In this document: in pieces, positions 1,236 to 55,596 of the stretch
How the letters are laid out: each line of letters opens with the position of its first letter
Position numbering within the stretch: position 1 is the stretch's first letter
Assembly: GCA_963761335.1 (NCBI GenBank)
Contig: CAVXGR010000025.1
Location: forward strand, 20,366-84,365
DNA: 64,000 nt
Origin: an uncultured delta proteobacterium
GTDB lineage: Bacteria; Desulfobacterota; Binatia; HRBIN30; BPIQ01
Direction: 5' to 3'
The notes under the pieces: generated by a model
Told to the model about the DNA's origin: nothing
What the model saw: only the letters and a program-made list of their open reading frames with translations
Database searches by the model: none
Made by a program: the position numbers and the translations under genes

Positions 1236-1245
1236 CGGCGCCCGC

Positions 1246-9852: not shown

Positions 9853-9884
9853 CGGTTCTTGTCTCCGCTCTTCATTCCCTGTTC

Positions 9885-10033: not shown

Positions 10034-10104
10034 CTGAATAGGTGCGCCCCATTTGAGGGAAGCCGGCGAGAGGGAGGGGGTGGACTCCCGCTCGCCGGTG
10101 ACTG

Positions 10105-10428: not shown

Positions 10429-10536
10429 CCATAGCCTCCTTGGTAGTAGGGTTGGTTGAAGTCCGCGCCCCCACCCCTGGAACGCGCGATTTTCATAGCA
10501 TGGCGTGACGGGGGCGAATAGTGGGTATTTTCGGTA

Positions 10537-10892
10537 GTGGGGGATTTTGAATTGAGTTGAACCTGACTTCCCCAGGTTGCATCTGGGGGCGGGAGCGCAG
10601 AGATCATTCGCCCCGAAGGGGCGCAGGCGTGTAGCCCCGGGGCTCCGACCCGGGGATTCCGAAGTCGACGTCGGCTGGCGCCCCGCCAGGGGCGCGGGCG
10701 CGGTTTTGACACAGGCCTCTGCACCCGAGGTTGCACGCCTGCGCCCCTGGCGGGGCGCATCGGGGAAGGCAGACCCGGGACCCCCGGGGCTCCGACCCGG
10801 GGATCCCCGGGTCTCCGACCCGGGGCTACATGCCTGCGCCGCTTCGCGGCGCGATCCCCCAGCCCAAGTTGGGTCGTGGGGGATTTTAATTG
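10537..10892. repeat. Mosaic of GC-rich hairpin elements bracketed by an 18-bp direct repeat
   Basis: GTGGGGGATTTT(G)AATTG occurs at 10537-10554 and at 10876-10892. Between them lie family R1 in inverted orientation (10607-10642) and direct orientation (10820-10854), and a family R2 hairpin pair (10678-10695 gcgccccgccaggggcgc and 10741-10758 gcgcccctggcggggcgc, exact reverse complements). CCCGGGG-CTCCGA-CCCGGGG modules lie at 10635-10655, 10783-10802 and 10806-10825. Confidence 0.85.
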
Positions 10893-10952
10893 GTAAGGGA
10901 ATTTTGAAACGAAACGCGCTTGATCTCAAGATTCACCGCTACTGTATTTTCT

Positions 10953-11055
10953 CCGTGCCCGTGCCCGTGCCCGTGCCCATGCCCGTCGTCTTCCGCGCCG
11001 ATGTTCCTTCTCCGCTCTGCTCAGAGACGGGCGCGGGCACGGGCACGGACACGGG
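10953..11055. repeat. Hairpin made of inverted hexanucleotide microsatellites (element F)
   Basis: The left arm 10953-10987 is (GTGCCC)n. The right arm 11026-11055 is (GGGCAC)n-like. About 27 of 30 positions are complementary and the loop is 38 nt. It lies upstream of the Ycf48-like gene. Confidence 0.88.
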
Positions 11056-11116
11056 ACTGGTGGGAAATCTTCCTTGAATCTCCATCGCGGCAGTGCCTAG
11101 TGTGCTCTCGTTTGAC

Positions 11117-12186: not shown

Positions 12187-14565
12187 ATGCTGTCGCGTCG
12201 CCTGATCGAGGGCTATCTCGACTTTCTCCTGCGGCGCCGTTTGCTCGTCGGCGCGCTGATCACCGGCGGCACCGCCTTCTTCGTCTGGTTCATGGTGTTC
12301 CACTTGGCGGTGTATCCGAACTTCTTCGACCTCTACCCGCCGAAGCACCCGTATATCCGCCTGTACCAGAAGTACCGCAGCATGTTCGGCACTGCCAACA
12401 TGCTGGCGATCGTGGTCGAGGTGAAGAAGGGTACCATCTTCGACGACCCCGCGACGGTGCAGAAGGTGGACCGCATCACCCTCGACCTGCTCCACGAGGT
12501 GCCCGGGGTGAACGGCGAGCAGGTTCTGTCGATCACCCACCCGAAGCTGAAGACGACACTGGCCTCCGGCTCCGGCATCAAGGTCGTACCGCTGATCTAT
12601 CCCCGCATTCCGCGCGACAAGGATGATCTCGATTTCCTGCGCCAGAAGGTCTACGCCACCGAGGGCGTGCGCGGCTTCTTCGTCTCCAAGGACGACAAGG
12701 CGACGATGATCACCGCCGGCTTCTGGGAGGAGCACTTCGATCTTCTCGGCATGTGGAACAAGCTGCAGGAGATCAAGAAGCGCGAGCAGGACGCCAATAC
12801 CAACATCTACATCACTGGCCCGCCGATTCTCTATGCCTACGTGGTGCGGGCGCTGCCGAAGATGATCTGGGTCTTCGCGGCGACCGGCGCGGCGATGGTG
12901 CTGCTGCTGTGGCTCTACTTTCGCACCGCCCAGGGCGTGCTCATCCCCGCATTCTCGGGTCTGATGAGCGCCGTCTGGGGGCTCGGCTTCGCCGGCTTGT
13001 GCGGCTTCTCTCTCGACCCGCTGGTGCTGGTCGTCTTCGTCCTGATCACGGCGCGGGCCCTGAGCCACTCCGTGCAGTCGATGGAGCGCTATCACGAGGA
13101 GTACTTCCGGCTCCACGACAAGGAGGCGGCGATCCGCAAATCCTATGTCGAGATCTACAGCCCGGCGATGGTCTCCATCATCTCCGACGGCCTGGCGATT
13201 CTGACCATCGCCGTCGCCAGCATCCCGCTCATGCAGAAGCTCGCCTTCGTCGCCAGCTTCTGGATCATCAGCATCTTCCTCAGCGTCGTCACCCTGCACC
13301 CCATCATTCTCATGTACGTGCGGCCGCCGCGGGAGATCCCCAACGAGGGCTGGGCGGACGGCATCTACCGGCGCATCTGCAGCTTTCTGATTCTCATCAG
13401 CCGCGGCAACGCGCGCTGGGTGGTGGCCAGCGTCTCGGGCGTGGTGATGCTGGTGGCCCTCTTCATGGCGCACAACCTGCGGGTCGGCGACACCACCATG
13501 GGCTCGGCTCTCTTCTACCCGGACCATCCGGTGAACCAGGCCTTCCGCAAGGTCAATGAAGACTTCGTCGGCGCCAGCCAGCTGGTGATCATCGCCGAGG
13601 GCAAGAAGAAGGGCGCCCTCAAGGACGCGCACACGCTCTCCGAGCTGTCGCGCTTCCAGCGCTACATGGAGCAAGGGGAGGGGGCCGGCGGCTCGCTCAC
13701 GGCGACGACGCTGCTGAAGAAGATCTTCCGCACCTTTCACGAGGGCGACCCGAAGTGGGAGATGCTCCCGGTGCGCGACGATCACATCAGCCAGCTCTTC
13801 TTCTTCCTCATCTCGGGCACCGGGCGTGGCGAGATGGACCGCTTCTTCGACCCGACGATGACCAACGCCACCATCAGCGTGTTCTACAAGGACTACAACA
13901 ACGATATCATCCATTCCGCGATCGCCCGCGCCAAGGCCTACATCGCCCAGAACGACGGCGAGAAGTCCTCGGTGCGCTATCTGCTCGCCGGCGGTCTGCT
14001 GGGGATCCTGGCGGCGGTGAACGAGGAGGTGAACTGGTCCTATCGGATCAACATCACCCTGATTCTCTTGACGGTCTTCATCCTCAGCTATGGAACCTAT
14101 CGCTCGGTGATCGGTGCGCTGATCGTGATGACTCCGTCGCTGGTGGCGCAACCGCTCAGTGAGGCGGTAATGTATCTGACGGGCATCGATTTCAACATCA
14201 ACTCGCTGCCGGTGGCCGCCGTCGGTATCGGCATCGGCATCGACTACGGGTACTACGTGCTCAGCCGTATCGTCGAGGAGTACGAGGCGACGGGCGATTT
14301 CGACGAGGCCAACAGCCGCGCCATCGCCACCACCGGCAAGGCGGTAATCTTCACCGGGACGACGCTGATCGCCAGCGTCGCCTTCTGGATCTTTTTCCCC
14401 ATGAAGTTCCAGGCGCAGATGGCGTTGCTGCTGGTGATGATCCTGGTGTTTCACGTCATCGGAGCACTGGTGTTCATTCCGGCGGCCGTGTCGCTGTTGC
14501 GCCCGCGCTTCGCCGTATCGCGCAAGGCTCCGGAGCCGGTGCTCGCCCGCGCGCAGACGGGGTGA
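12187..14565 (+). CDS. RND-superfamily (MMPL/HpnN-like) membrane transporter
   Basis: Frame of ORF 12064..14565. ATG 12187 lies 2 nt after the upstream TGA. 792 aa with two blocks of hydrophobic helices separated by soluble loops, as in MMPL-type exporters. Confidence 0.75.
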   Translation: MLSRRLIEGYLDFLLRRRLLVGALITGGTAFFVWFMVFHLAVYPNFFDLYPPKHPYIRLYQKYRSMFGTANMLAIVVEVKKGTIFDDPATVQKVDRITLDLLHEVPGVNGEQVLSITHPKLKTTLASGSGIKVVPLIYPRIPRDKDDLDFLRQKVYATEGVRGFFVSKDDKATMITAGFWEEHFDLLGMWNKLQEIKKREQDANTNIYITGPPILYAYVVRALPKMIWVFAATGAAMVLLLWLYFRTAQGVLIPAFSGLMSAVWGLGFAGLCGFSLDPLVLVVFVLITARALSHSVQSMERYHEEYFRLHDKEAAIRKSYVEIYSPAMVSIISDGLAILTIAVASIPLMQKLAFVASFWIISIFLSVVTLHPIILMYVRPPREIPNEGWADGIYRRICSFLILISRGNARWVVASVSGVVMLVALFMAHNLRVGDTTMGSALFYPDHPVNQAFRKVNEDFVGASQLVIIAEGKKKGALKDAHTLSELSRFQRYMEQGEGAGGSLTATTLLKKIFRTFHEGDPKWEMLPVRDDHISQLFFFLISGTGRGEMDRFFDPTMTNATISVFYKDYNNDIIHSAIARAKAYIAQNDGEKSSVRYLLAGGLLGILAAVNEEVNWSYRINITLILLTVFILSYGTYRSVIGALIVMTPSLVAQPLSEAVMYLTGIDFNINSLPVAAVGIGIGIDYGYYVLSRIVEEYEATGDFDEANSRAIATTGKAVIFTGTTLIASVAFWIFFPMKFQAQMALLLVMILVFHVIGALVFIPAAVSLLRPRFAVSRKAPEPVLARAQTG

Positions 14566-14606
14566 GCTCGGCCGGCGCCCCCAGAGGCGAGAAAGATGAG
14601 GTCTGC

Positions 14607-15983
14607 ATGATGGTGACGCGGTGGCATTTTCTCTCGTTTGCGGGCGCCTTGCTCGCCGCTTCTCTGCTCCCTGCCGCTCCGCTGCGGGCGCAGACGCCGG
14701 CGCCGGCCGGCGCAACCACTCCGGCGGCGCCGGCGGCGCTCAAGCCGGGCGACGTCCTCGGGCCCGACAACTGGCAGGCGGCCAAGGATCTGCTGCCCCC
14801 GGAAATTCTCGACCACTACCGGAAGGGCGAGTACCGCAACCCGATCGTCGCCTGGCCGGAAGGGAACTACCACTGGGCGCCGCAGTTCGTCGAGGCCACC
14901 AAGCGCAACGCGACGGAGCTGTCGCTCAACGCCGACGGCGCGATCGTCGACAAGACCGGCAAGCAGCCGCCGCTCGTCTACGGCCTGCCGTTCCCGAACA
15001 TCGACGAGGCCGATCCGCAGGCGGGCGAGAAGGTGCTGTGGAACTACTTCTACAGCTACTGGGAGCAGGGCAACAGCTTCAACGTCATCCGCCTCGATTG
15101 GGTGAACCCGACTGGCATCGATCGCGAGTCGGGCCAGAAGGTGTACTTCCTCTACTACGACGGCCAGGCCGTGCCGTATCGGATTCCCAACCCCGACAAC
15201 CTCAGCCAGCAGTCCATCGCCACCACCATCTCGCCGGCCGATCTCCAGGGCACGACGGCACTCACCTGGCGCTACCGCGACTCCGACAAACGCGACTCCG
15301 CCTGGGTGTACGTGCCGGCGCTGCGGCGCGTGCGTGCCGTCAGCCCGGCGAATCGCTCCGACGGCTTTCTCGGCTCCGACATGAGCCAGGACGACGGCCC
15401 CTTCTTCGACGGCAAGCCCGAGGACTTCACCTGGAAGCTGGTGGGAGCGCGGCGGTTCTTCCGGCTCGTGGACCCGAAGAGCATCGCCGGCCAGACGATC
15501 ACCAAGAAGCTCCCCGGCGGCGGGTATCGCGCCGAATGGCCGGCCGGGTTCCGCATCGGCTTTCAGGACCCGAGCTGGAAGGGAATCGCCTGGGCGCCGA
15601 TCGCCGCGGCGCTCGCCGAGCGCCGCACCTGGGTGATCGAAGGTGTCCCCAAGGACAAGTACTATCTGTACGGCAAGCTGCAGCTCTACTTCGACGCGGA
15701 GAACTACCAGGGTGCCTGGAACCGCAAGTTCGGCTGGGACGGCGACCTGCTCAACACGCTGCAGGCGATGGGTTTCCAGAACGTCAAGGTCGGCGAGACC
15801 AAGGGCGTCGAGGACTGGGTGTGGGGCTCGAGCCACGCCTACCAGTGTGCCGAGAACGTCAAGATGAACCGCGCCACCGTCGGCGGTGACAAGCTGGCCG
15901 GCGAAGATGTCCCCACGGACCGGCGGGTGCCGATGGAGCCGAGCTTCTTCGACTTCTCCAACCTGCAGCGATTCGGCAAGTAG
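14607..15983 (+). CDS. DUF1329 (LolA-like outer-membrane lipoprotein-sorting fold) protein
   Basis: ORF 14562..15983. ATG 14607 has GAGG 5 nt upstream. Signal peptide MMVTRWHFLSFAGALLAASLLPAAPLRA. Motifs GLPFPNIDEADPQAGEKVLWNYFYSYW and YRDSDKRDSAWVYVPALRRVRAVSPANRSDGFLGSDMSQDD are as I recall for DUF1329. Confidence 0.7.
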   Translation: MMVTRWHFLSFAGALLAASLLPAAPLRAQTPAPAGATTPAAPAALKPGDVLGPDNWQAAKDLLPPEILDHYRKGEYRNPIVAWPEGNYHWAPQFVEATKRNATELSLNADGAIVDKTGKQPPLVYGLPFPNIDEADPQAGEKVLWNYFYSYWEQGNSFNVIRLDWVNPTGIDRESGQKVYFLYYDGQAVPYRIPNPDNLSQQSIATTISPADLQGTTALTWRYRDSDKRDSAWVYVPALRRVRAVSPANRSDGFLGSDMSQDDGPFFDGKPEDFTWKLVGARRFFRLVDPKSIAGQTITKKLPGGGYRAEWPAGFRIGFQDPSWKGIAWAPIAAALAERRTWVIEGVPKDKYYLYGKLQLYFDAENYQGAWNRKFGWDGDLLNTLQAMGFQNVKVGETKGVEDWVWGSSHAYQCAENVKMNRATVGGDKLAGEDVPTDRRVPMEPSFFDFSNLQRFGK

Positions 15984-16056
15984 CGCCGGGTCATGCAGGG
16001 AAAGGCGAGAATCCTCGGGCGGACGAGGCTCGGCCGAGTCACGCCCCGGAAACCAC

Positions 16057-17241
16057 ATGGACTTCCGCCTCGCTGAAGAAGAGGAGCGCTTTCGCTCCGA
16101 GGTCGAGGATTGGCTGCGCGCCAATCTGCCGGCAGGCTGGGGCACGCCGGCTTTCCGCGAGCCGGAGACCGCGGAGGAGAAGGTCGCCTTCGCCAGAAGC
16201 TGGCAGCGCCGCCTGCGCGACGGCGGCTGGGCGGGACTCTCGTGGCCGCTCGAGTACGGCGGCCGCGCCGCGTCCGTCGTCGAGCAGCTGATCTTCAACG
16301 AGGAGTACGCGCGCCTGCGGGCGCCCGACCTGATCAGCATCAGCGTCGGCCTGTCGCTGGTCGGCCCGACGCTGATCCGCTGGGGCACGCCGGCGCAGAA
16401 GGAGCGCTTTCTGACGCGCATCCTCTCGGGCGACGAGGTCTGGTGCCAGGGGTTCTCCGAGCCCAATGCCGGCTCGGATCTGGCCGCGGTGCGCACCCGC
16501 GCCGAGCGCCGCGGCGACTGGTACGTGGTCTCCGGACAGAAGATCTGGACCAGCTTCGCCCGCCATTCACAGTGGTGCATTCTGGTGGTGCGCACCGATC
16601 CGGAGGCCCCCAAGCACCGGGGCATCTCCTTCCTGATGGTGGACATGTCGAGCCCCGGCATCACCATCCGCCCGTTGCGGGAGATGACCGGCGACGCGTG
16701 GTTCAACGAGGTCTTCTTCGACGAGGTGCGGGTGCCGGCCGAGAACCTGGTCGGCGAGGAGAACCGCGGCTGGGAGGTGGTGATGACGACGCTGGCGCAC
16801 GAGCGCGGCGTCACCGCGCCGCATGTGCGCCTGCAGGCGGAGACCCGACTCCTGGCCCGACTGGCGCGCCAGCGCCGCAGCGACGGCCATCGCGCCAGCG
16901 ACGATCCGCACCACCGGCAGCGGATCGCGCAGCTGGCGATCGAGGCCGAGGTGCTGCGCGTGAGCGCCTATCGCAACATCACGCAGATTCAGCGCACCGG
17001 GCAGCCGGGCGCCAGCGGCTCGATGATGAAGCTCTTCTGGAGCGAGATGGACCAGCGGCTCAAGGACGCCGCTTTCGAGGTTCTCGGCGCCTACGGCATT
17101 CTCGAGGGCAGCACCGCCGTCGATCGCGGCTGGTGGGCCCACGAGCTACTCTGGTCGCGGGCGGCAACCATTTACGCCGGCACCTCGGAGGTGCAGCGCA
17201 ACATCATCGCCCAGCGCGTGCTCGGGCTGCCGCGCCAGTAG
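16057..17241 (+). CDS. Acyl-CoA dehydrogenase
   Basis: Frame of ORF 15886..17241, ATG 16057 (MDFRLAEEEERFRSEVEDWL). Motifs: WPLEYGGRAAS, EVWCQGFSEPNAGSDLAAVRT, SGQKIWTS, YAGTSEVQRNIIAQRVLGLPRQ. Confidence 0.9.
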   Translation: MDFRLAEEEERFRSEVEDWLRANLPAGWGTPAFREPETAEEKVAFARSWQRRLRDGGWAGLSWPLEYGGRAASVVEQLIFNEEYARLRAPDLISISVGLSLVGPTLIRWGTPAQKERFLTRILSGDEVWCQGFSEPNAGSDLAAVRTRAERRGDWYVVSGQKIWTSFARHSQWCILVVRTDPEAPKHRGISFLMVDMSSPGITIRPLREMTGDAWFNEVFFDEVRVPAENLVGEENRGWEVVMTTLAHERGVTAPHVRLQAETRLLARLARQRRSDGHRASDDPHHRQRIAQLAIEAEVLRVSAYRNITQIQRTGQPGASGSMMKLFWSEMDQRLKDAAFEVLGAYGILEGSTAVDRGWWAHELLWSRAATIYAGTSEVQRNIIAQRVLGLPRQ

Positions 17242-17267
17242 GCTGCGAGCGACACAGAGGAGGACGA

Positions 17268-18062
17268 ATGGCCGATTCCCAATCCGTGCAGCTGAGCGTC
17301 GAGGGCGGCGTCGCCTGGATCACTCTCAACCGCCCCGAGGCGCGCAATGCCGTCAACGCGGAGATGCGCGACGAGGTGATCTCGATCTTGACGCGGGCGC
17401 GCACCGACGGCGATATCCGCGCCGTCGTTCTCACCGGAGCCGGCAAGGGGTTCTGCACCGGCGCCGACCTCTCCGGACCCCGAGGGCAGGGTCCCTCCGG
17501 CCCCGGGGCGGCGCGCGAGACGATGCGCAACAGCTCGCAGCGGCTGATTCGCACCGTCTGGGAGCTCGAGAAGCCGGTGATCGCCGCCGTCAACGGTGTC
17601 GCCGCCGGTCTCGGATGTCATCTGGCCTTCGCCTGCGACCTGGTCGTTGCCGCCGCCGAGGCCCGCTTCATCGAGGTGTTCGTGCGGCGCGGCATTGCCA
17701 TCGACGCCGGCGGCGCCTTCCTGCTGCCCCGCCTGATCGGCCTGGCGCGCGCCAAGGAGCTGGTCTTCTTCGGCGACGACCTCAGTGCGGGGCGCGCTTT
17801 GGAGATCGGTCTCATCAACCGCGTCGTTCCCGGAGAGGAGCTGGCACAGGCGGCACGCGAGTGGGCCGAGCGGCTGGCGCGCGGGCCGACGTTCGCCATC
17901 GGCATGTCGAAGCGCCTCCTCAACCGCTCCCTGGAGTCGAGCCTGGAGACCTGCCTCGAAGAGGAGGCCATGGCGCAGTCGCTGGTGACTCAGTCGGAGG
18001 ACACGCGCGAGGGTCTGACGGCGTTCGCCGAGCGGCGCGAGCCGCACTTCAAAGGTCGCTGA
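17268..18062 (+). CDS. Enoyl-CoA hydratase/isomerase (crotonase family)
   Basis: ATG 17268 preceded by GAGGAGG. Motifs: VAWITLNRPEARNAVN, VVLTGAGKGFCTGADL, VIAAVNGVAAGLGCHLAFACD and the C-terminal EGLTAFAERREPHFKGR. Confidence 0.9.
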   Translation: MADSQSVQLSVEGGVAWITLNRPEARNAVNAEMRDEVISILTRARTDGDIRAVVLTGAGKGFCTGADLSGPRGQGPSGPGAARETMRNSSQRLIRTVWELEKPVIAAVNGVAAGLGCHLAFACDLVVAAAEARFIEVFVRRGIAIDAGGAFLLPRLIGLARAKELVFFGDDLSAGRALEIGLINRVVPGEELAQAAREWAERLARGPTFAIGMSKRLLNRSLESSLETCLEEEAMAQSLVTQSEDTREGLTAFAERREPHFKGR

Positions 18063-18143
18063 GGCCCGCGGATCCCTGCCCCAGCGGAAGACGGCCAGGC
18101 GCCCGTATCGCCGCTTCAGGCGAGGGCGGGAGCTGGCGTTTCG

Positions 18144-18172
18144 TTTGACAAGGAGCCTATCGTCGGTGACTA
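18144..18172 (+). promoter_or_regulatory. Candidate sigma70-type promoter
   Basis: Perfect TTGACA at 18144-18149. After a 17-nt spacer comes GACTAT at 18167-18172, which carries A2, A5 and T6 of TATAAT. It lies 146 nt upstream of ATG 18318. The call rests on the sequence pattern only. Confidence 0.25.
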
Positions 18173-18243
18173 TCGACGTCATGGAGGGACGCTTCGCGCT
18201 GACGGAGCGGGTTGGGCCGGCCCTCCATCGCGCCGGCGCGAGC

Positions 18244-18273
18244 GTGGGAGCGGCACTTCGGTGCGGCTCCCAC
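18244..18273 (+). other. Strong stem-loop with cUUCGg tetraloop in the leader of the next gene
   Basis: gtgggagcggcac-ttcg-gtgcggctcccac pairs at 12 of 13 positions. The loop is TTCG closed by C-G. It ends 45 nt upstream of ATG 18318. Confidence 0.6.
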
Positions 18274-18317
18274 GCCGCGTTCGACGCTGTCGACACCGAG
18301 TTTTCCTCCCCGTGGTG

Positions 18318-18995
18318 ATGGAAGGTGCCGTCGCGAATTGGGTGCGCGAGCTCCGGGGATGCGTGAGCGCCGCCGACCTCGATGACCTGCGCCGGGCGAT
18401 CAGCGGCGGGGAATCCCTCTTTCGCGAGGTCAACGGCTTTGCCGGGATGGCGCCGCGCTATCGGGTGATCCACGGCACCGCCGTCCACCGCGCCCTGCCG
18501 CAGGTGGTGAGCTTTGGAGAGCGCCTGGTTCGACCTCTGGTGGAGGCATTTGCGGGAAGGCCCCTGGCGCCGCTGCGAGAGAACGCCTTCGACATTCGCA
18601 TCCAGCTCTTCCGGCGCGGCGGCGACTACTTCCGCTGGCATTTCGACGGCCACACCTACAACGCCCTGGTGACCCTGACCAACACCATCGGCGCCGAGAC
18701 CGAGGTCGTACCCTTTGCCGTCAGCCGTGCGGTGCGCCGCGTCTATATGCCCTTTGCCCTGTTTCCCACTGTCTTCTCAGTCTTGCCGCGCATGCGCTTC
18801 GCCATGGACGCGGGCGACGTCCTGGTGTTGCGCGGCGGGCAGCTCCTGCACCGCGGCGTGTGCCACGGCGCGGAGGGAGAGCGGTTGCTGATCGTCTTCG
18901 GCTACAACGACGCCGACGCCCCGCCGCGCCGGGTCTCGCCGTTTCGCCGCCGTGTCAGCCGCTTGATCAACTACGGCGAGCTGGGCCCCGGGTGA
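18318..18995 (+). CDS. Putative 2OG-Fe(II) oxygenase-superfamily protein
   Basis: Frame of ORF 18261..18995, ATG 18318. HxD in FRWHFDGHTYNALVTLTN. Distal His and Arg in AGDVLVLRGGQLLHRGV....GERLLIVFGY. This pattern fits the jelly-roll 2OG oxygenase layout. The family was not confirmed by search. Confidence 0.45.
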   Translation: MEGAVANWVRELRGCVSAADLDDLRRAISGGESLFREVNGFAGMAPRYRVIHGTAVHRALPQVVSFGERLVRPLVEAFAGRPLAPLRENAFDIRIQLFRRGGDYFRWHFDGHTYNALVTLTNTIGAETEVVPFAVSRAVRRVYMPFALFPTVFSVLPRMRFAMDAGDVLVLRGGQLLHRGVCHGAEGERLLIVFGYNDADAPPRRVSPFRRRVSRLINYGELGPG

Positions 18996-19014
18996 CGGAG
19001 GCTGTCTCAAACAC

Positions 19015-20527
19015 CTGGGCAGGACGATTCCGCCGGCACGCGGGCAAGGGAGAAGCGGCGTCTCGCCGCTTCGAAAGCGCCGGGACGGCGCTTCTACCTG
19101 GGCAGGACGATTCCGCCGGCACGCGGGCCAAGTAGAAGCGGCGTCTCGCCGCTTCGGAAAGCGCGGGACGGCGCTTCTACTGGGCAGGACGATGCCGCCG
19201 GCACGCGGGCAAGGTAGAAGCGGCGTCTCGCCGCTTCGAAAGCGCCGGGACGGCGCTTCTACCTGGGCAGAACGACGCCGCCGGCACGCGGGCAAGGGAG
19301 AAGCGGCGTCTCGCCGCTTCGAAAGCGCCGGGACGGCGCTTCTACCTGGGCAGAACGATTCCGCCGGCACGCGGGCAAGGTAGAAGCGGCGTCTCGCCGC
19401 TTCGAAAAGCGCCGGGACGGCGCTTCTACCTGGGCAGAACGACGCCGTCGATCCGCGGGCCAAGTAGAAGCGGCGTCTCGCCGCTTCGGAAAGCGCCGGG
19501 ACGGCGCTTCTACGTGGGGCAGAACGACGCCGCCGGCACGCGGGCAAGGGAGAAGCGGCGTCTCGCCGCTTCGAAAGCGCCGGGGCGGCGCTTCTACGTG
19601 GGCAGAACGATGCCGCCGGCACGCGGACCAAGTAGAAGCGGCGTCTCGCCGCTTCGAAAAGCGCCGGGACGGCGCTTCGGCGCTTCTACCTGGGCAGAAC
19701 GACGCCGCCGGCACGCGGACCAAGTAGAAGCGGCGTCTCGCCGCTTCGAAAAGCGCCGGGACGGCGCTTCTACTGGGCAGGACGATGCCGCCGGCACGCG
19801 GGCAAGGTAGAAGCGGCGTCTCGCCGCTTCGGAAAGCGCCGGGACGGCGCTTCTACGTGGGCAGGACGATTCCGCCGGCACGCGGACCAAGTAGAAGCGG
19901 CGTCTCGCCGCTTCGAAAAGCGCCGGGACGCCGCTTCTACGTGGGCAGAACGATGCCGCCGGCACGCGGACCAAGTAGAAGCGGCGTCTCGCCGCTTCGA
20001 AAAGCGCCGGGACGCCGCTTCTACGTGGGCAGAACGATGCCGCCGGCACGCGGACCAAGTAGAAGCGGCGTCTCGCCGCTTCGAAAAGCGCCGGGACGGC
20101 GCTTCTACTGGGCAGGACGATGCCGCCGGCACGCGGACCAAGTAGAAGCGGCGTCTCGCCGCTTCGAAAAGCGCCGGGACGGCGCTTCTACCTGGGCAGA
20201 ACGACGCCGCCGGCACGCGGACCAAGTAGAAGCGGCGTCTCGCCGCTTCGGAAAGCGCCGGGACGGCGCTTCTACCTGGGCAGAACGACGCCGTCGGCAC
20301 GCGGGCAAGGGAGAAGCGGCGTCTCGCCGCTTCGGAAAGCGCCGGGACGGCGCTTCTACGTGGGGCAGAACGATGCCGCCGGCACGCGGACCAAGTAGAA
20401 GCGGCGTCTCGCCGCTTCGAAAAGCGCCGGGACGGCGCTTCTACTGGGCAGGACGATTCCGCCGGCACGCGGGCAAGGGAGAAGCGGCGTCTCGCCGCTT
20501 CGAAAAGCGCCGGGACGGCGCTTCTAC
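19015..20527. repeat. Tandem array of 18 units of 83-84 bp (linker L plus double-hairpin module S)
   Basis: The TGGGCAG motif recurs at 19016, 19099, 19181, 19264, 19347, 19431, 19515, 19599, 19691, 19774, 19858, 19942, 20026, 20109, 20193, 20277, 20361 and 20445. The unit is CTGGGCAGRACGAYKCCGCCGGCACGCGGRCMAR followed by GTAGAAGCGGCGTCTCGCCGCTTCGRAAAGCGCCGGGACGGCGCTTCTAC. Periods are 82 to 84 bp, with one of 92. Confidence 0.95.
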
Positions 20528-20531
20528 TTTT
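20478..20531 (+). terminator. Possible intrinsic terminator formed by the last array unit
   Basis: The last S module ends in CGCTTCTAC, which pairs with GAGAAGCG at its 5' end. The inner hairpin is AAGCGCC-GGGAC-GGCGCTT. TTTT follows directly at 20528-20531. It lies downstream of the + strand gene ending at 18995, with 1.5 kb of repeats in between. Confidence 0.3.
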
Positions 20532-20596
20532 GTGAAGCCTCCGAAGATCGGCGGCCGCAGGTACAACTGCGCGCCCGTAGCTGTTAGGCTGGACTG

Positions 20597-22000
20597 GTGC
20601 CGCACTACGATCTGATCGTTCTGGGCAGCGGTCCCGCCGGGCAGAAGGCCGCCATTCAGGCCGCCAAGCTGCGCCGGCAGGTCGCTATCGTCGAGCGCCG
20701 TGATCTCGGCGGCGTCTGCATCAACACCGGCACCATCCCCAGCAAGACCCTGCGCGAGGCGGTGCTCTATCTCTGGGGCTACCGGCAGCGCACCTTCTAC
20801 GGGAGCAGCTACCGGGTGAAGGAGGACATCGGCATTCAGGACCTGCTGATGCGCGCCCACCACGTCACCCAGGTCGAGCACGACGTCATCCGCGACCAGA
20901 TGACGCGCAACTTCGTGCACATGATCTCCGGGCTGGCGAGCTTCAAGGATGCGCACACGATTCGCGTCGAGCGGCTCGACGGCGCCGAGGAGCTGAGCGG
21001 CGACGTCATCATCGTGGCAACCGGGACGCTGCCGGCGCGGCCGCCATCGGTGGCCTTCGATCGCCGCTACATCATCGACTCCGACGGCCTGCTCGATCTG
21101 CCCTCGCTCCCCCGCTCCATGATCGTGGTTGGCGGCGGCGTCATCGGCGCCGAGTACGCCACCATTTTTGCGCAGGCCGGCGTGCGCGTCACTCTCATCG
21201 AGCGGCGGCCGACGATTCTCGACTTCGTCGACTCGGAGATTACCGAGATCCTCAAGTATCACATTCGACAAGCTGGCGTAACCTTGCGGTTCGGAGATGA
21301 AGTCGTTGCCGTCGACAAGCCGGAGGAGGCCGGCGGCATGGCCACTGCTCACCTCAAGAGCGGCAAGCGGGTCTCGGCCGAGACGCTGCTCTTCTCCGCC
21401 GGCAGACGCGGCGCCACTGACGGCCTCAACCTGCGGGGGGCGGGGGTGGAGACCGACAGTCGCGGCCGCATTCGCGCCGACGAGTTCTTTCGCACCGGGG
21501 TGCCGCACATCTACGCGGTCGGCGACGTCATCGGCTTCCCGAGCCTCGCCTCGACGTCGATGGAGCAGGGGCGCCTGGCCGCTTGCCACGCCTTCGGTGT
21601 GCCGGCGCCGCCGATGCCGAGCCGCTACCCGTTCGGCATCTACACCGTGCCGGAGATCTCGATGATCGGCGAGACCGAGGAGCAGCTCACCGAGAAAGCC
21701 GTTCCCTACGAGGTCGGGCGCGCTCGCTACCGGGAGATCGCCCGCGGCGCCATCATCGGCGACGAGGCGGGCATGGTGAAGCTTCTCTGCCACGCCGACT
21801 CCCGCAAGCTTCTCGGCGTGCACGCCATCGGCGAGGGCGCCACCGAGCTGATCCACATCGGCCAGGCGGTGCTGGCCTTCGACGGGCGACTCGATTACTT
21901 CGTCGAGAACGTCTTCAACTACCCGACCCTGGCGGAGTGCTACAAGGTGGCGGCTCTCGACGCCATGAACAAGCTCGGCGCCGCCATGCCGTCGCGCTAA
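20597..22000 (+). CDS. sthA: Soluble pyridine nucleotide transhydrogenase (SthA/UdhA)
   Basis: GTG 20597. MPHYDLIVLGSGPAGQ. GGVCINTGTIPSK has Thr in place of the second redox Cys of Lpd, as in SthA. VPYEVGRARYREIARG and FNYPTLAECYKVAALD align closely with E. coli SthA as I remember it. Confidence 0.88.
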   Translation: MPHYDLIVLGSGPAGQKAAIQAAKLRRQVAIVERRDLGGVCINTGTIPSKTLREAVLYLWGYRQRTFYGSSYRVKEDIGIQDLLMRAHHVTQVEHDVIRDQMTRNFVHMISGLASFKDAHTIRVERLDGAEELSGDVIIVATGTLPARPPSVAFDRRYIIDSDGLLDLPSLPRSMIVVGGGVIGAEYATIFAQAGVRVTLIERRPTILDFVDSEITEILKYHIRQAGVTLRFGDEVVAVDKPEEAGGMATAHLKSGKRVSAETLLFSAGRRGATDGLNLRGAGVETDSRGRIRADEFFRTGVPHIYAVGDVIGFPSLASTSMEQGRLAACHAFGVPAPPMPSRYPFGIYTVPEISMIGETEEQLTEKAVPYEVGRARYREIARGAIIGDEAGMVKLLCHADSRKLLGVHAIGEGATELIHIGQAVLAFDGRLDYFVENVFNYPTLAECYKVAALDAMNKLGAAMPSR

Positions 22001-22066
22001 CCGGCGGCATTCGAAGATCGCGCCGGAGCCCCGGCCTTGGTTGCGGGCAGACGCCGCGGTGGCCGC

Positions 22067-23755
22067 TCACACCTCGAGCAGCGACTCGCGGCCGCGCGCC
22101 CGGAAGGCGCCGCGGAGCCGCTGGTACGCCGCCTCGTCGAGACGCCGATAGCCCGCGTCCGCCGCCGGGCGCCAGTAGATCGGATCCGCCACCAGCTCGA
22201 GGCGGAACTTCTCGCGGCGCAGCTCGCGCACCAGCGGCTTGTTGGTGGCGGTGCGCGGCAGATCGCGGGCGACGCGGACGTAGGTCGGGATCCACTTGGG
22301 CGAGATGTCGGGCTGCCCGCGCAGAAAACGCAGCAGCTCCTCGGCGTCGAAGGCGGCGTCGTCGGCGAGCACCAGGGTCGCCATCACCCGATCGCCCGCG
22401 TCCACATCGGGCACGCCGTAAACGCTGCAGAGGTACACCTGTGGATGTCGTTGCAGGATGTCCTCGACGGGCTTCGCCAGGAAGTTCTCGCCGTCGACGC
22501 GGATCCAGCTGATGTCGCGCCCGGTGAAGTAGAGAAAGCCGCGCTCGTCGCGGTAGCCGAAGTCGCCGCTCCAGTACATACCGCCGCGGCAGCGCTCACG
22601 GCTCGCCTCCTCGTTCTTGTAGTAGCCCTCGAACTTGCCGACGCCCGCAGTGTTGACGATCTCGCCGATCGCCTCGTCGGGGTTGAGGATGCGGCGGCGC
22701 TCGTCCAGACGCGCCCGCGGGCACTCGACACTGCTGGCGTCGAGCACGCGCACGGCGTCGGGCGACAGGCCGACGCTGCCCACCGGGTCGTCGGGGCGGC
22801 GCACGAAGCCGAAGCCGCCCTCGCTGGCGCCGAAGCCGTCGATCACCTCGCAGCCGAAGCGCGCCGCGAACTCCGCCGTGATGCGCGGCGACCCCTCGTT
22901 GCCGTAGGCGACCCGCAAGGGGTTCTCTGCATCGTCCGTCCGCCGCGGCGTGGTGAGGATGTACGCCAAGGGCTTGCCGGTGTAGTTGAAGTAGGTCACC
23001 CCGTAGCGGCGCACGTCGGCGAGCCATTGGCTCTTCGAGAAGCGGCGGATCATGCCGAGGCGGGCGCCGCGCAGGAGCGCCGGCATGAAGCCGCACTGCT
23101 GGGAGTTGGCGTGGAAGAGGGGCATCGCCAGATAGCCGGTGTCGGCGCCGCTCACGCCCATGAGGCCGCCGACGTACTCGGCCGTCGAGCACATGCGCCG
23201 GTGCGAGATGATCACCGCCTTGGGCGCCCCGGTGGTGCCCGAGGTGAAGACCAGGCAGAGGGGATCGCCCTCGGCAAGCGGCCGCTGCGGATCCGCGTCG
23301 CGGCAACCGTCGAGAGCCGCCTCGAGCGAGACACCGAAGGGCACGGCGCCGCCCCAGCGCGTGGTTACCAGAAGCCGCTCCTCGGAGAACGGGAGCCGGG
23401 CGCGTATCGGCTCGAGAAGACCCAGGTGCGCCGGCTCGCTGAGCAGCAGCGCGCAGTCGCTGTGGGCGATGTCGCGGCGCAGATGCTCGCCGCGCTGCAC
23501 GGGGTTGATGCCGACCACCACGGCGCCGGCGAGAGCCGCGCCGCCGATCGCCAGCAGGTACTCGGGAAGGTTGTCGAGCAGCACGCCGACGTGGAAGGGC
23601 GCCGATCGCGGACGTCGTTCGAGAAAGAGGCGCGCGTAGCGGCAGCTCTCGCGGTAGTACTCCGCGTGGCTCAGCTGGAAATCGTCGAAGAGAATGAAGG
23701 GCCGCTGGCGGTCGGCGCCGCCGCCGTTGCGGCGAATGAGATCGGCGACGGTCAT
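22067..23755 (-). CDS. AMP-dependent (long-chain-type) acyl-CoA synthetase
   Basis: ORF 22067..23761, with ATG at 23755 (MTVADLIRR). AMP-binding motif LVFTSGTTGAPKAV. Then GGMYWSGDFGYRDERGFLYFTGRDISWIRVDGENF and the C-terminal TATNKPLVRELR. Confidence 0.88.
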   Translation of the reverse strand: MTVADLIRRNGGGADRQRPFILFDDFQLSHAEYYRESCRYARLFLERRPRSAPFHVGVLLDNLPEYLLAIGGAALAGAVVVGINPVQRGEHLRRDIAHSDCALLLSEPAHLGLLEPIRARLPFSEERLLVTTRWGGAVPFGVSLEAALDGCRDADPQRPLAEGDPLCLVFTSGTTGAPKAVIISHRRMCSTAEYVGGLMGVSGADTGYLAMPLFHANSQQCGFMPALLRGARLGMIRRFSKSQWLADVRRYGVTYFNYTGKPLAYILTTPRRTDDAENPLRVAYGNEGSPRITAEFAARFGCEVIDGFGASEGGFGFVRRPDDPVGSVGLSPDAVRVLDASSVECPRARLDERRRILNPDEAIGEIVNTAGVGKFEGYYKNEEASRERCRGGMYWSGDFGYRDERGFLYFTGRDISWIRVDGENFLAKPVEDILQRHPQVYLCSVYGVPDVDAGDRVMATLVLADDAAFDAEELLRFLRGQPDISPKWIPTYVRVARDLPRTATNKPLVRELRREKFRLELVADPIYWRPAADAGYRRLDEAAYQRLRGAFRARGRESLLEV

Positions 23756-23756
23756 C

Positions 23757-23817
23757 CTCAATCACTTCTCAATCACTTGATTGACTTCGCATACGCGGAA
23801 GTGCTAGCGCAAGTCAA
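23757..23817. promoter_or_regulatory. Divergent control region with direct repeats and dyads (candidate operator)
   Basis: CTCAATCACTT occurs twice in tandem (23757-23767 and 23768-23778). A perfect dyad TCAATCA-CT-TGATTGA lies at 23769-23784. A second dyad pairs TTGACTT (23781-23787) with AAGTCAA (23811-23817). The segment is an AT-richer island between start codons at 23755 (-) and 23838 (+). Confidence 0.4.
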
Positions 23818-23837
23818 CTTTCGATCGGGAGGGACGC

Positions 23838-24728
23838 ATGTTGTTGCAGGGAAAAGTCGCGGTGGTGACCGGTTCCGGCCGCGGCATCGGCCGGGGAATT
23901 GCCCTGGCGTTGGCGCGCGAAGGCGCGCGCCTGGTGATCAACGACGTCGGCTGCGACGTCAACGGCCGCGGCGGCGCCGAGGATCCGGCGGCACAGGTGG
24001 TCCGCGAGATCGAGACCATCGGCTCGCAGGCGGTTCCCAACTACGACTCCGTCTCCTCCTTCAGCGGCGCCGAGGCGATCATCCGCACGGCGACCGAGAA
24101 GTTCGGGCGCATCGACATCCTGGTGAACAATGCCGGGATCGTGCGCGACCGCTCCATCGCCAAGATGACCGAGGACGACTTCGACGCCGTCCTCGCCGTG
24201 CACCTCAAGGGAAGCTTCAACTGCGGTCGGCATGCCATCCCGATCATGCGCGAGCAGGGCTACGGCCGCATCATCAACATCACCTCGAGCGCCGGCCTGC
24301 GCGGAAACTTCGGACAGTCCAATTACGGCGCCGCCAAGGCCGGGATCATGGGTCTGACGCTGGTGTGGGCCATCGAGCTCGGCAAGTACGGCATCACCGT
24401 GAATGCCATGGCTCCATCGGGAATGACGCGCATGACCGGCACCATCCCCGGCTTGGAGGGCAAGGAGCCGCCGCCGGAGATGAACGCCGAGCTGAACGGG
24501 CCGCTGATCGCCTTCCTGGGCTCGGAGCGAGCCGCGCACGTGAACGGACAGATCTTCGGGCGCCGCGGCTTCGGCTACACCATCTTTCAGCAGCCGCGGC
24601 CGATCGCCATGATGTACAAGCCGGGCGGGCTCAGCGCCGCCGAGGTGGCCGACAACTTCGACGCCGTGTTCGGCGAGCATCTGCAGACGATCGGTATCCC
24701 GCAGCTGCGCCGCGAAGAGAAGAAGTAG
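23838..24728 (+). CDS. Short-chain dehydrogenase/reductase (SDR)
   Basis: GKVAVVTGSGRGIGRGIA (TGxxxGxG), NNAG, and the catalytic YGAAK in SNYGAAKAGIMGLT. It resembles the 3-hydroxyacyl-CoA dehydrogenase-type SDR of multifunctional enzyme 2. Confidence 0.85.
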   Translation: MLLQGKVAVVTGSGRGIGRGIALALAREGARLVINDVGCDVNGRGGAEDPAAQVVREIETIGSQAVPNYDSVSSFSGAEAIIRTATEKFGRIDILVNNAGIVRDRSIAKMTEDDFDAVLAVHLKGSFNCGRHAIPIMREQGYGRIINITSSAGLRGNFGQSNYGAAKAGIMGLTLVWAIELGKYGITVNAMAPSGMTRMTGTIPGLEGKEPPPEMNAELNGPLIAFLGSERAAHVNGQIFGRRGFGYTIFQQPRPIAMMYKPGGLSAAEVADNFDAVFGEHLQTIGIPQLRREEKK

Positions 24729-33330: not shown

Positions 33331-33345
33331 TCGGCGACAAGAGTC

Positions 33346-33388
33346 GAAGCGGCGTCCCGCGGCGTCGAAAGCGCCGGGACGCCGCTTC
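33346..33388. repeat. Solo, single-long-hairpin variant of the array S module
   Basis: gaagcggcgtcccg (33346-33359) and cgggacgccgcttc (33375-33388) form a perfect 14-bp stem with a 15-nt loop. It shares GAAGCGGCGTC...GAAAGCGCCGGGACGCCGCTTC with array units. It sits between the convergent stops at 33330 and 33412. Confidence 0.85.
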
Positions 33389-33411
33389 TGCTCCGAAGCG
33401 CGGCGGTACGC

Positions 33412-55384: not shown

Positions 55385-55467
55385 CTGGGCAAACCAGTTC
55401 CGCCGGTCCGTGGGCCACGTAGAAGCGGCTCTCGCCGCTTCGGAAAGCGCCGGGACGGCGCTTCTAC
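55385..55467. repeat. Solo full-length (L+S) copy of the 83-bp array unit
   Basis: ctgggcaaaccagttccgccggtccgtgggccac + gtagaagcggctctcgccgcttcggaaagcgccgggacggcgcttctac aligns end to end with array unit 2 (19098-19180) at roughly 88 percent identity by eye. It is followed by tggggaagatcc, a decayed start of another L. Confidence 0.85.
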
Positions 55468-55544: not shown

Positions 55545-55596
55545 CGCCTTGCGGCGTCGTCCGATCTTCCCCGGGTTACACCCGGGGCTACACGCC

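What the first reader, a model, noticed from the sequence alone, without database searches (positions are those of the whole stretch)
19015..20531. 1.5-kb array of 18 tandem 83-84 bp hairpin-rich units, the largest noncoding block in the window
Each unit has a 34-nt linker, CTGGGCAGRACGAYKCCGCCGGCACGCGGRCMAR. It is followed by a 49-nt module, GTAGAAGCGGCGTCTCGCCGCTTCGRAAAGCGCCGGGACGGCGCTTCTAC. The module holds two adjacent hairpins: GAAGCGGCG-TCT-CGCCGCTTC and AAGCGCC-GGGAC-GGCGCTT. The linker carries a third, weaker dyad (GCCGC-CGGCAC-GCGGGC) with the same CCGG-N-ACG core, so the 84-bp unit looks like three related subunits of about 28 bp.

Substitutions cluster in the linker and in the junction between the hairpins (TTCGAAAG, TTCGGAAAG, TTCGAAAAG), whereas the stems are nearly invariant. 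Periods of 82, 83, 84 and 92 bp shift every reading frame, so the long ORFs predicted on both strands are not conserved as protein. The array starts 19 nt after the stop of the oxygenase-like gene, ends in TTTT and stops 69 nt before sthA. Other intergenic gaps in this window are mostly under 200 nt.

Three explanations seem possible. It could be an expanded REP/BIME-type element. It could be a tandem array of small structured RNAs or terminators, as with the tandem NsiR1 sRNA repeats of Nostoc. It could be a protein-binding array comparable to the 12 x 43 bp sopC centromere of F plasmid. I cannot distinguish these from sequence alone.
Basis: partly seen in the sequence, partly recalled or inferred. 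Interest (0 to 1): 0.8.

Follow-up and report, generated by a model that had tools for sequence, protein, structure and literature searches.

The report
Giant tandem array of REP doublets
This is an unusually long (18 copies, 1.5 kb) tandem pile-up of a known kind of small palindromic bacterial repeat, the REP/REPIN elements handled by RayT transposases, lying between two ordinary genes; it is a large example of a familiar thing, not a new kind of system.

Summary
The array is real: 18 head-to-tail units of 82-92 bp at 19015-20527, all 18 different in sequence. It folds best as a single long hairpin (-35 vs -27.8 kcal/mol). The window holds two further solo copies (55386-55467, 33342-33390).

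The same 23-mer occurs in at least 120 metagenome contigs. In 12 of 14 loci that encode a RayT-type Y1 transposase it lies within about 110 nt of that gene. In a Kiritimatiellae MAG the REP beside RayT matches the window's REP1 at 24 of 24 positions. The stem covaries (7 complementary variants).

Tandem reiteration of REP doublets together with flanking DNA is already described (E. coli BIME-2, Pseudomonas REPIN clusters). This one is larger than the SBW25 figures I read (4 REPINs; 12 REPs).

I found no support for the sRNA, terminator-array or centromere readings. The linker is not demonstrably a third REP. No RayT lies in the window, and the copy number is not independently sized.

Verdict: an expanded REP/BIME-type cluster, a new member of a known kind, of modest interest.

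The parts
19015..20527 (+). Tandem array of 18 units. Each unit is a 33-35-nt linker followed by a 49-50-nt REP doublet (57 nt in unit 8, which carries an 8-nt internal duplication).
   Evidence: All 18 units differ in sequence; 13 remain distinct after homopolymer compression.
20025..20058 (+). Linker of a representative unit (unit 13): GTGGGCAGAACGATGCCGCCGGCACGCGGACCAA. This is the variable part of the unit.
   Evidence: It holds 14 of the 28 variable columns. It forms only weak hairpins, and its similarity to the REP is not significant.
20059..20082 (+). REP in forward orientation: GTAG tag, 8-bp stem AAGCGGCG/CGCCGCTT, loop TCT.
   Evidence: Invariant in all 18 units apart from GTAG changed to GGAG in 5 units. 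It matches 24 of 24 positions of the REP beside RayT in L135.
20084..20108 (+). Inverted REP (iREP): AAAGCGCCG-GGA-CGGCGCTT-CTAC. Its reverse complement is GTAGAAGCGCCGTCCCGGCGCTTT.
   Evidence: The two stem S positions are swapped in a compensating way relative to the forward REP, so the pair is a heterodimer.
20478..20531 (+). Last doublet followed by TTTT. This is the only terminator-like site in 18000-21000.
   Evidence: one site found, which is fewer than the 2.3 expected from shuffles.
55386..55467 (+). Solo full-length unit (linker plus doublet), followed by a partial second linker. It lies between two minus-strand genes.
   Evidence: nhmmer E 2.6e-18 over HMM positions 2-84. Sequence shown.
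33342..33390 (+). Solo divergent doublet without linker, lying between convergent genes next to sodC. It keeps the long hairpin but not the first small hairpin.
   Evidence: nhmmer E 1.2e-8. It folds at -37.7 kcal/mol as a single hairpin.
18261..18995 (+). Upstream flanking gene, a HalD-like (Fe/2OG-type) hypothetical protein. The database calls it as 225 aa (P0001).
   Evidence: No Pfam hit for the window protein itself. PF23169 is precomputed for many homologs, and labels it PF23169:HalD, marked weak. The nearest homolog is 55% identical.
20597..22000 (+). Downstream flanking gene sthA (soluble pyridine nucleotide transhydrogenase).
   Evidence: Pfam Pyr_redox_2 and Pyr_redox_dim. Homologs are named Si-specific NAD(P)(+) transhydrogenase.

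Best explanation
The array is a locally amplified cluster of REPINs, that is, inverted doublets of a GTAG-tagged repetitive extragenic palindrome (REP). REPs are the DNA substrates of RayT/TnpA-REP Y1 (HUH) transposases.

Shown here:
- Each 49-50-nt module is REP (GTAG-AAGCGGCG-TCT-CGCCGCTT), a 3-5-nt spacer, then an inverted REP (...CTAC). The GTAG ends face outward, and the module folds as one long hairpin.
- The same REP flanks RayT genes in other genomes.
- The unit also occurs as solo copies in this window.

Inferred:
- A single linker-REPIN unit inserted downstream of the HalD-like gene and was then reiterated in tandem together with its flanking linker.
- The reiteration came either from RayT cleavage and strand transfer on single-stranded DNA (the BIME amplification model of Ton-Hoang et al. 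2012) or from unequal recombination or slippage between direct repeats.
- Point changes and gene conversion then produced today's mosaic of 18 non-identical units.

Likely consequences, also inferred, by analogy with what the REP literature reports (PMC3333891, PMC3733652):
- If the array is transcribed with the upstream gene, 18 very stable hairpins would protect that mRNA's 3' end and impede read-through into sthA. The last hairpin plus U4 would act as a weak terminator.
- At the DNA level it could bind gyrase or similar proteins, as reported for E. coli REPs.
- No host function is required to explain its existence.
For: - The array and its unit anatomy are confirmed.
- The module is two inverted copies of one 23-24-nt sequence with GTAG/CTAC ends. 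The long-hairpin fold is -35.0 kcal/mol (z = -6.5), against -27.8 for the two-hairpin form.
- The divergent solo copy at 33342 keeps only the long hairpin.
- 14 of 127 fetched loci encode a homolog of one Y1 transposase clade, and 12 of those 14 have the REP within about 110 nt, mostly on both sides.
- That clade scores above Pfam's Y1_Tnp cut-off (26.4 vs 23 bits). Its best NCBIfam match is REP_Tyr_transpos (E 4.9e-15), and its best PDB match by profile is E. coli TnpA-REP 4ER8.
- JGI names the clade 'REP element-mobilizing transposase RayT'.
- It keeps the spacing of the GTAG-contacting residues W-Q-x4-D-H-x2-R (compared with PMC6006769).
- In L135 the REP beside RayT matches the window's REP1 at 24 of 24 positions and is itself tandemly reiterated.
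- The stem covaries: 7 complementary stem variants, with 187 of 192 instances complementary.
- 52% of family REPs in the fetched loci sit in GTAG-outside dimers.
- Smaller tandem REPIN clusters that include flanks occur in L029, L027, L095, L098 and L083.
- There is no coding signal, no Rfam family, and a second REP-like tandem array lies in the same window.
Against: - No RayT gene lies in the 64-kb window, and the rest of the source genome could not be read. A cognate transposase in this organism is therefore unproven.
- Only 2 solo copies are visible, so genome-wide dispersal is an extrapolation.
- Five of 18 forward REPs carry GGAG instead of GTAG. By analogy with E. coli mutants this should abolish RayT binding, so at least part of the amplification need not be RayT-driven.
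- 18 doublets is far more than in any of the 127 comparison loci (at most about 3 REPIN units) or in the SBW25 figures I read.
- The nearest relatives' loci (81 kb) have no copy of this REP family.
- Any RNA-level or DNA-level effect is untested.
Confidence: 0.86

Rival explanations
1. The array is a set of tandem small structured RNAs or a multi-terminator/attenuator block. It would have been selected for an RNA-level function (insulating sthA from upstream transcription, or producing unit-length sRNAs as with NsiR1), and its REP ancestry would be incidental.
For: - The array sits 19 nt after a stop codon, on the sense strand of both neighbours.
- Each unit folds about 3 kcal/mol better on the + strand than on the - strand (-44.9 vs -41.6).
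- The last hairpin is followed by TTTT.
- The hairpin arms are nearly invariant while the linkers drift.
Against: - There is no promoter-like site in 18000-21000, and only 1 terminator-like site, fewer than the 2.3 expected from shuffles.
- 17 of 18 hairpins lack a U-tract.
- No Rfam match reaches threshold.
- The solo copy at 55386 is antisense to both of its neighbours, so orientation relative to transcription is not kept.
- Invariant stems inside a young tandem array say nothing about selection.
- Conservation of the element elsewhere tracks RayT genes, not any gene context.
Confidence: 0.07
2. The array is a protein-binding DNA array, either a centromere-like site (as with sopC or parS) or a dedicated nucleoid or gyrase-binding block that organises the chromosome.
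For: - The array is regular, with about 84-bp phasing (8 helical turns) and invariant palindromes.
- REPs are reported to bind IHF, PolI and DNA gyrase (stated in PMC3333891).
Against: - The neighbouring genes I scanned (14562-24728) are metabolic enzymes (acyl-CoA dehydrogenase, HalD-like, SthA, AMP-ligase, SDR), with no partition genes among them.
- The palindrome is the RayT-associated REP found as low-copy scattered elements in many unrelated contigs. That pattern is not how centromere repeats behave.
- Gyrase binding would be a property of a BIME-like cluster, not an alternative to it.
Confidence: 0.04
3. The size of the array is an assembly artefact: a shorter (or longer) REPIN cluster was mis-sized by the assembler.
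For: - An independent short-read assembly breaks on entering the array, so short reads cannot size it.
- Several differences between units are homopolymer-length changes (GAAAG/GAAAAG, GGGC/GGGGC) of the kind long-read errors produce.
Against: - All 18 units are distinct sequences, and 13 remain distinct after homopolymer compression. Looping over identical copies cannot generate this.
- The flank agrees with the short-read contig at 1203 of 1203 positions.
- Mis-sizing would not change what the element is.
Confidence: 0.1

Closest known systems
E. coli BIME-2 (tandem REP/iREP clusters; Bachellier/Gilson nomenclature, summarised in Ton-Hoang et al. 2012, PMC3333891)
   Same: REPs alternate in orientation, with a short linker inside the pair and a longer flanking linker between pairs. 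The pair-plus-linker is reiterated head to tail. The copies at one locus are well conserved, and the REPs carry a GTAG tag.
   Different: The REP sequence is unrelated: a short perfect 8-bp stem with a 3-nt loop, rather than the 30-40-nt imperfect y/z2 palindromes. The inner spacer is only 3-5 nt. There are 36 REPs in one array. The host is a Binatia-like lineage, not an enterobacterium. Gyrase binding is untested.
Tandem REPIN clusters of Pseudomonas fluorescens SBW25 (Bertels & Rainey 2011, PMC3116915)
   Same: The doublets form a long hairpin (a REPIN). [quoted passage not shown] The REPs are associated with RAYT genes.
   Different: The largest ordered SBW25 cluster has 4 REPINs (about 700 bp) and the largest REP cluster has 12 REPs; here there are 18 REPINs (1.5 kb). 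The REP family and RayT subclass are different.
GTAG-tagged REP super-family, head-to-head heterodimers (Di Nocera et al. 2013, PMC3733652)
   Same: A terminal GTAG sits directly at the foot of a 6-13-bp stem with a 2-3-nt loop. The GTAG termini face outward (HH dimer). The two partners differ by compensated stem changes (heterodimer). [quoted passage not shown]
   Different: I could not find this particular consensus (AAGCGSCG-TCY-CGSCGCTT) in the paper's text or its 5 held supplements. Figure 1, which lists the 24 families, is not held, so identity with one of them is not excluded.
REPtron of a Kiritimatiellae MAG (L135, GCA_016929905.1) and other RayT loci (L005, L012, L019, L021, L043, L081, L097)
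   Same: The REP is identical to the window's at 24 of 24 positions in L135, and it flanks a RayT gene. In L135 it is also tandemly reiterated: at least 5 REPs at a 46-50-nt period, then at least 3 iREPs at about 44 nt.
   Different: In those loci the REPs sit beside the transposase, whereas the window array has no RayT within 19 kb upstream or 43 kb downstream. The L135 run is head-to-tail single REPs, not doublets plus a linker.

Membership tests
GTAG-tagged REP (Di Nocera 2013; Quentin 2018 search rules) | A GT[AG]G tetranucleotide lies 0-2 nt 5' of the foot of a hairpin. | tested here: met
   GTAG lies directly at the stem foot in 13 of 18 forward REPs (GGAG in 5). CTAC is present in all 18 inverted REPs.
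GTAG-tagged REP (Di Nocera 2013; Quentin 2018 search rules) | A fully paired basal stem of 7-20 nt with a loop of 2-5 nt. | tested here: met
   The stem is 8 bp (AAGCGGCG/CGCCGCTT) and the loop is TCT or TCC. Stem covariation is seen across loci.
GTAG-tagged REP (Di Nocera 2013; Quentin 2018 search rules) | Many dispersed, mainly extragenic copies in the host genome. | tested here: inconclusive
   Two solo intergenic copies lie in the 62 kb outside the array.
GTAG-tagged REP (Di Nocera 2013; Quentin 2018 search rules) | A cognate RAYT/TnpA-REP gene flanked by the same REP (a REPtron). | tested here: inconclusive
   Met in other genomes: 12 of 14 RayT loci have the REP within about 110 nt, and L135 has an identical REP. 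The window itself holds no Y1 transposase, and the source genome cannot be tested.
REPIN (Bertels & Rainey 2011) | Two REPs in inverted orientation, separated by a short spacer, that together form a hairpin. | tested here: met
   The spacer is 3-5 nt. The MFE structure is a single hairpin at -35.0 kcal/mol with z = -6.5.
REPIN (Bertels & Rainey 2011) | Behaves as a replicative unit (excision or insertion events, population of copies). | not testable with these tools
   This needs read-level data or strain comparisons. Only one short-read contig, ending at the array, was available.
BIME-2-type cluster | REP and iREP alternate with a short inner linker, and the pair plus an outer linker is repeated in tandem. 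| tested here: met
   18 x [33-35-nt linker + REP + 3-5 nt + iREP].
BIME-2-type cluster | Built from E. coli y and z2 REPs, and binds DNA gyrase. | tested here: not met
   The REP sequence is unrelated to the enterobacterial y/z2 REPs (my reading against the description in PMC3333891). Gyrase binding cannot be tested. It therefore works like a BIME-2 but is not a member of the E. coli family.
CRISPR array | Identical repeats separated by unique spacers of similar length. | tested here: not met
   The 'spacers' (linkers) are the same sequence in every unit, differing at only a few positions.
Intrinsic terminator array | Each GC-rich hairpin is followed by a U-tract. | tested here: not met
   Only the last unit qualifies: 1 site found, against 2.3 expected by chance.
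Any curated RNA family (Rfam 15) | A covariance-model match at the gathering score. | tested here: not met
   There are no matches at gathering score in the whole window. Matches listed at E up to 10 in 18500-21000 all fall well below their cut-offs.
Plasmid/chromosome centromere repeats (sopC/parS type) | Adjacent partition genes (ParA/ParB or SopA/SopB), or a plasmid context. | tested here: not met
   The neighbours I scanned are metabolic enzymes. The unit has no match in 72,556 plasmids.

The most novel reading that the evidence does not exclude
The 23-24-nt REP is essentially invariant across hosts labelled as different phyla: the Binatia-like window, Kiritimatiellae, Acidimicrobiia, and metagenome contigs of 44-73% GC. 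The adjacent RayT proteins, by contrast, are only about 38-62% identical to the L005 reference (one near-identical pair aside). This REP/RayT pair may therefore be an unusually constrained or horizontally mobile system, at odds with the usual picture of species-specific REPs and vertically inherited RAYTs. The 18-REPIN array could then be a site of ongoing RayT-driven rolling amplification, or a domesticated insulator in front of sthA, rather than a dead relic.
Probability: 0.25. Interest if true: 0.55.

Novelty: new member of a known kind. Interest (0 to 1): 0.3.

Why it matters
For annotation, this 1.5-kb block should be labelled as a REP/REPIN (BIME-like) cluster. The 150-280-aa ORFs that run through it on both strands should not be called as genes.

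For REP biology it offers three things:
- A very large, perfectly ordered REPIN array, with 36 REPs against the 12 reported as the largest cluster in SBW25.
- A REP family outside the Proteobacteria, tied to the large RayT clade named mostly from PVC and Hydrogenedentes genomes.
- A REP whose sequence is conserved across phylum-level host labels.

Such an array is a natural substrate for testing the amplification models for BIMEs. It is also a likely hotspot for copy-number variation and for short-read assembly breaks. It does not reveal a new kind of system.

Tried and rejected
- Species-representative genomes. Four of them (L001-L003, L007) lack the tag and look like chance or coding matches. 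The source genome is not in that collection, and no second scan was allowed.
- Exact-protein lookups with my own ORF coordinates failed and worked only with the database's own gene call (P0001). The source contig is withheld; only a 1.2-kb Logan contig was returned.
- Relatives' loci for the HalD-like gene and sthA (L129-L134) share no synteny and hold no REP of this family. They say nothing about copy-number dynamics.
- The unit has no match in the plasmid collection. The viral contigs hold no copy of the REP.
- The single-sequence PDB search found nothing. Only the profile reached 4ER8.
- A literal-sequence literature search returned only unrelated primer coincidences. The supplements of PMC3733652 do not contain the stem sequence.
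- A higher-order repeat was rejected. TRF's 335-nt period is not backed by the lag analysis, where mean differences are flat at 6.7-8.5 for lags 1-9. The array is a mosaic, with the closest pairs at lags 6, 7, 12 and 17.
- The linker as a degenerate third REP is not significant.
- A coding repeat protein was rejected on codon-position GC.
- The isolate genome Pirellula sp. SH-Sr6A could not be fetched.
Full report
**Observation**

The region 19015-20527 is a head-to-tail array. TRF reports period 84, 18.0 copies and 92% matches. The anchor GAAGCGGCGTCTCGCCGCTTC occurs exactly 18 times, with spacings of 82-85 nt and one of 92 nt. Matches to the 50-nt module never occur in shuffled sequence.

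Each unit is a 33-35-nt linker followed by a 49-50-nt module. The array starts 19 nt after the stop of the upstream gene (18995), ends in TTTT, and stops 69 nt before sthA. In a GC3-based gene map it fills the largest intergenic gap in the window, 1601 nt. 19 of 28 gaps are under 200 nt, although seven others are 0.5-1.2 kb.

ORFs running through the array have flat GC across codon positions, whereas real genes here show about 0.70/0.47/0.87, so it is non-coding.

**What the module is**

The two halves of the module are inverted copies of one sequence. The forward half is GTAGAAGCGGCGTCTCGCCGCTTC. The reverse complement of the second half is GTAGAAGCGCCGTCCCGGCGCTTTC. They differ mainly by a compensated G/C swap in the stem and by one loop base.

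The module's minimum-energy fold is therefore a single long imperfect hairpin, at -35.0 kcal/mol (z = -6.5).

A GTAG tetranucleotide directly at the foot of an 8-bp stem with a 3-nt loop is the published definition of a GTAG-tagged REP (PMC3733652; search rules in PMC6006769). Two such REPs in inverted orientation forming a hairpin make a REPIN (PMC3116915). With the GTAG ends outside, and partners that differ by compensated stem changes, the module is a head-to-head heterodimer in Di Nocera's terms.

**Dispersed copies**

A profile of the 18 units finds a full-length solo unit at 55386-55467 (E 2.6e-18) and a divergent linker-less doublet at 33342-33390. Both are intergenic.

The 33342 copy has lost the first small hairpin but keeps a near-perfect long hairpin. 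This argues that the doublet hairpin is the conserved entity.

The 55386 copy is followed by a partial second linker (TGGGGAAGATCCGATG against TGGGCAGGACGATG). That fits the published 'flank-REPIN-flank' unit that gets reiterated (PMC3116915, Figure S7 legend).

**Link to RayT transposases**

A first scan of species-representative genomes with an iREP pattern gave few hits. In an Acidimicrobiia MAG (L005), however, the same hairpins flank a Y1/HUH gene. That gene scores above Pfam's Y1_Tnp cut-off (26.4 vs 23 bits), and its best NCBIfam match is REP_Tyr_transpos (E 4.9e-15, below that model's cut-off).

Of the 127 loci held, 14 encode a homolog of that protein, and in 12 of the 14 the REP lies within about 110 nt, usually on both sides.

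Several lines tie this clade to the RayT family:
- A profile of these proteins has E. coli TnpA-REP (4ER8) as its best PDB match, ahead of the IS200/IS605 transposases.
- The motif WQKESFDHIVR reproduces the spacing of the E. coli GTAG-contacting residues W94, Q95, E100 (here D), H101 and R104 (PMC6006769).
- The clade is very large (more than 7,300 proteins at E <= 1e-30). JGI names it 'REP element-mobilizing transposase RayT'. Named hosts are Kiritimatiellae, Planctomycetes, Hydrogenedentes and Verrucomicrobiota.
- In a Kiritimatiellae MAG (L135), the REP just upstream of RayT matches the window's forward REP at 24 of 24 positions. The gene is followed by its own tandem run of at least 5 REPs and at least 3 inverted REPs.

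Across the loci the inner stem occurs in 7 different complementary versions, and 187 of 192 instances are complementary. About half of all REPs in the loci sit in GTAG-outside dimers, with spacers of 2-108 nt.

**Tandem clusters elsewhere**

The same family forms small tandem REPIN clusters that include their flanks: L029 (94-nt period x 2.9), L027, L095, L098 and L083. None approaches 18 units.

The literature already describes this architecture:
[quoted passage not shown] The largest has 4 REPINs, and the largest REP cluster has 12 REPs (PMC3116915).

The window also contains a second, unrelated REP-like tandem array (60 nt x about 4 at 55568-55867). Local amplification of palindromic units therefore recurs in this genome.

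**How it most likely arose and works**

Shown: the array is a tandem reiteration of linker plus REPIN, and the REP is the one found next to RayT genes.

Inferred: a single unit inserted downstream of the HalD-like gene and was then amplified. Two routes are possible. One is RayT cleavage at iREP and linker sites followed by strand transfer; Ton-Hoang et al. showed in vitro that this assembles extra BIME units. The other is unequal recombination or slippage between direct repeats.

The mosaic pattern suggests repeated segmental duplication or conversion. The closest unit pairs are 3/10, 9/15, 4/16 and 1/18, and there is no clean higher-order period. The most polymorphic site is the iREP/linker junction just after CTAC, where four variants occur. 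This is compatible with variable joining points but does not prove them.

Five forward REPs carry GGAG instead of GTAG. In E. coli, mutating GTAG abolishes TnpA-REP binding and cleavage (PMC3333891). Those units are therefore probably inert as RayT substrates, and homologous recombination alone may have copied them.

Functional consequences are inferences from what the REP literature reports: 3'-end mRNA protection, impeded read-through into sthA, a weak terminal terminator, and possible protein binding. None is needed to explain the array.

**Rival explanations**

- *sRNA or terminator array.* There is no promoter-like site. Only one terminator-like site is found, fewer than expected by chance. 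There is no Rfam match. The solo unit at 55386 is antisense to its neighbours.
- *Centromere or other binding array.* The neighbouring genes I scanned are metabolic enzymes, there is no plasmid match, and the element's distribution follows RayT.
- *Mis-sized assembly.* This cannot be excluded, because the only independent assembly is short-read and stops 30 nt into unit 1, where units 1 and 2 diverge. However, all 18 units are different, 13 of them even after homopolymer compression, and the flank matches the short-read contig at 1203 of 1203 positions.
- *Linker as a third REP.* This is not supported (P about 0.09).

**Host and context**

The nearest named relatives of SthA (71% identity), and one HalD-like homolog, come from Candidatus Binatia MAGs. 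The nearest HalD-like homolog overall is only 55% identical. The source is therefore probably a deep-branching Binatia-like lineage. This is an inference from two proteins.

Six loci from these relatives (81 kb) contain no REP of this family, no array and no RayT, and synteny upstream of sthA is not conserved. The element is lineage-specific there.

**Limits**

Genome-wide copy number and the presence of a cognate transposase in this organism remain untested. The taxon labels of the comparison contigs come from MAG binning.

**Verdict**

It is a new, unusually large member of a known kind. Interest is modest (0.3), with some extra interest in the near-invariance of this REP across phylum-level host labels.

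Noticed in passing
window 55568-55867 (also 10730-10760, 10818-10850, 55500-55545): A second, unrelated tandem array: a 60-nt unit repeated about 4-5 times. Each unit carries the hairpin GCGCCCCC-TTCG-GGGGGCG and the element CCGGGTTCCGACCGGGG. Related motifs of the form 'GGGGCTACAYGCCKGCGCC + hairpin' occur at the other sites, so this looks like a second REP-like family. It shares an intergenic region with the solo REPIN at 55386-55467.
   Followed up: partly
window 10940-11050: A run of (CCGTGC)n is followed about 40 nt later by the inverted run (GGCACG)n. This is a long inverted repeat made of hexamer runs, inside the 1.24-kb gap 9853-11092, which has no convincing ORF.
   Followed up: no
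L005 7757-7782; L115; L097 10211-10400; L081; L059 2411-2470: Several RayT genes of this clade carry in-frame insertions of their own REP. The inserted peptides read, for example, GKRRDGAST, EAASRRL and SGVSPL. In L005, L115, L097 and L081 the insertion lies at one site, between 'SFTAK..' and 'WQKESFDH'; in L059 it lies further N-terminal.
   Followed up: partly
L004 230-320: A REP pair of this family appears to lie inside a coding region of a Kiritimatiellia MAG: the reading frame continues through '...GGSGVSPLIQSRDGSATTSKRRDGAST...'. This resembles the intragenic REPs reported for Opitutus terrae in PMC3733652.
   Followed up: no
L135 8635-9001: Downstream of a Kiritimatiellae RayT gene lies a head-to-tail run of at least 5 identical REPs (46-50-nt period), followed by at least 3 inverted REPs (about 44-nt period, each preceded by a G-run). 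The run continues to the end of the contig.
   Followed up: partly
Loci L008-L127 as a whole: The same 23-nt REP occurs on contigs with GC from 44% to 73% (median 61%). Taxon labels are available only for other loci with this REP (Acidimicrobiia L005; Kiritimatiellae L004, L006, L135). The adjacent RayT proteins are only about 38-62% identical to the L005 reference, apart from the near-identical L115. That is an unusually conserved REP for a class of element usually described as species-specific.
   Followed up: partly
window 1114-2406, 2414-3598, 15886-17241: Three paralogous acyl-CoA dehydrogenase genes, 61-79% identical at the DNA level in long blocks. They appear as the largest dispersed direct repeats outside the array.
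   Followed up: no
window 17242-18260: A gap of about 1 kb lies just upstream of the HalD-like gene and has no ORF with a coding-type GC3 pattern. The Logan contig L128 has a 72-aa gene call ending there (window about 17844-18062), with no family assignment.
   Followed up: no
window 19632-19689 (unit 8) and 19891-20024 (units 11-12): Unit 8 carries an 8-nt internal duplication (GGCGCTTC) in the inverted REP. Units 11 and 12 share a G-to-C change that weakens the small second hairpin but removes a mismatch from the long doublet hairpin (-49.3 vs -44.9 kcal/mol per unit).
   Followed up: partly
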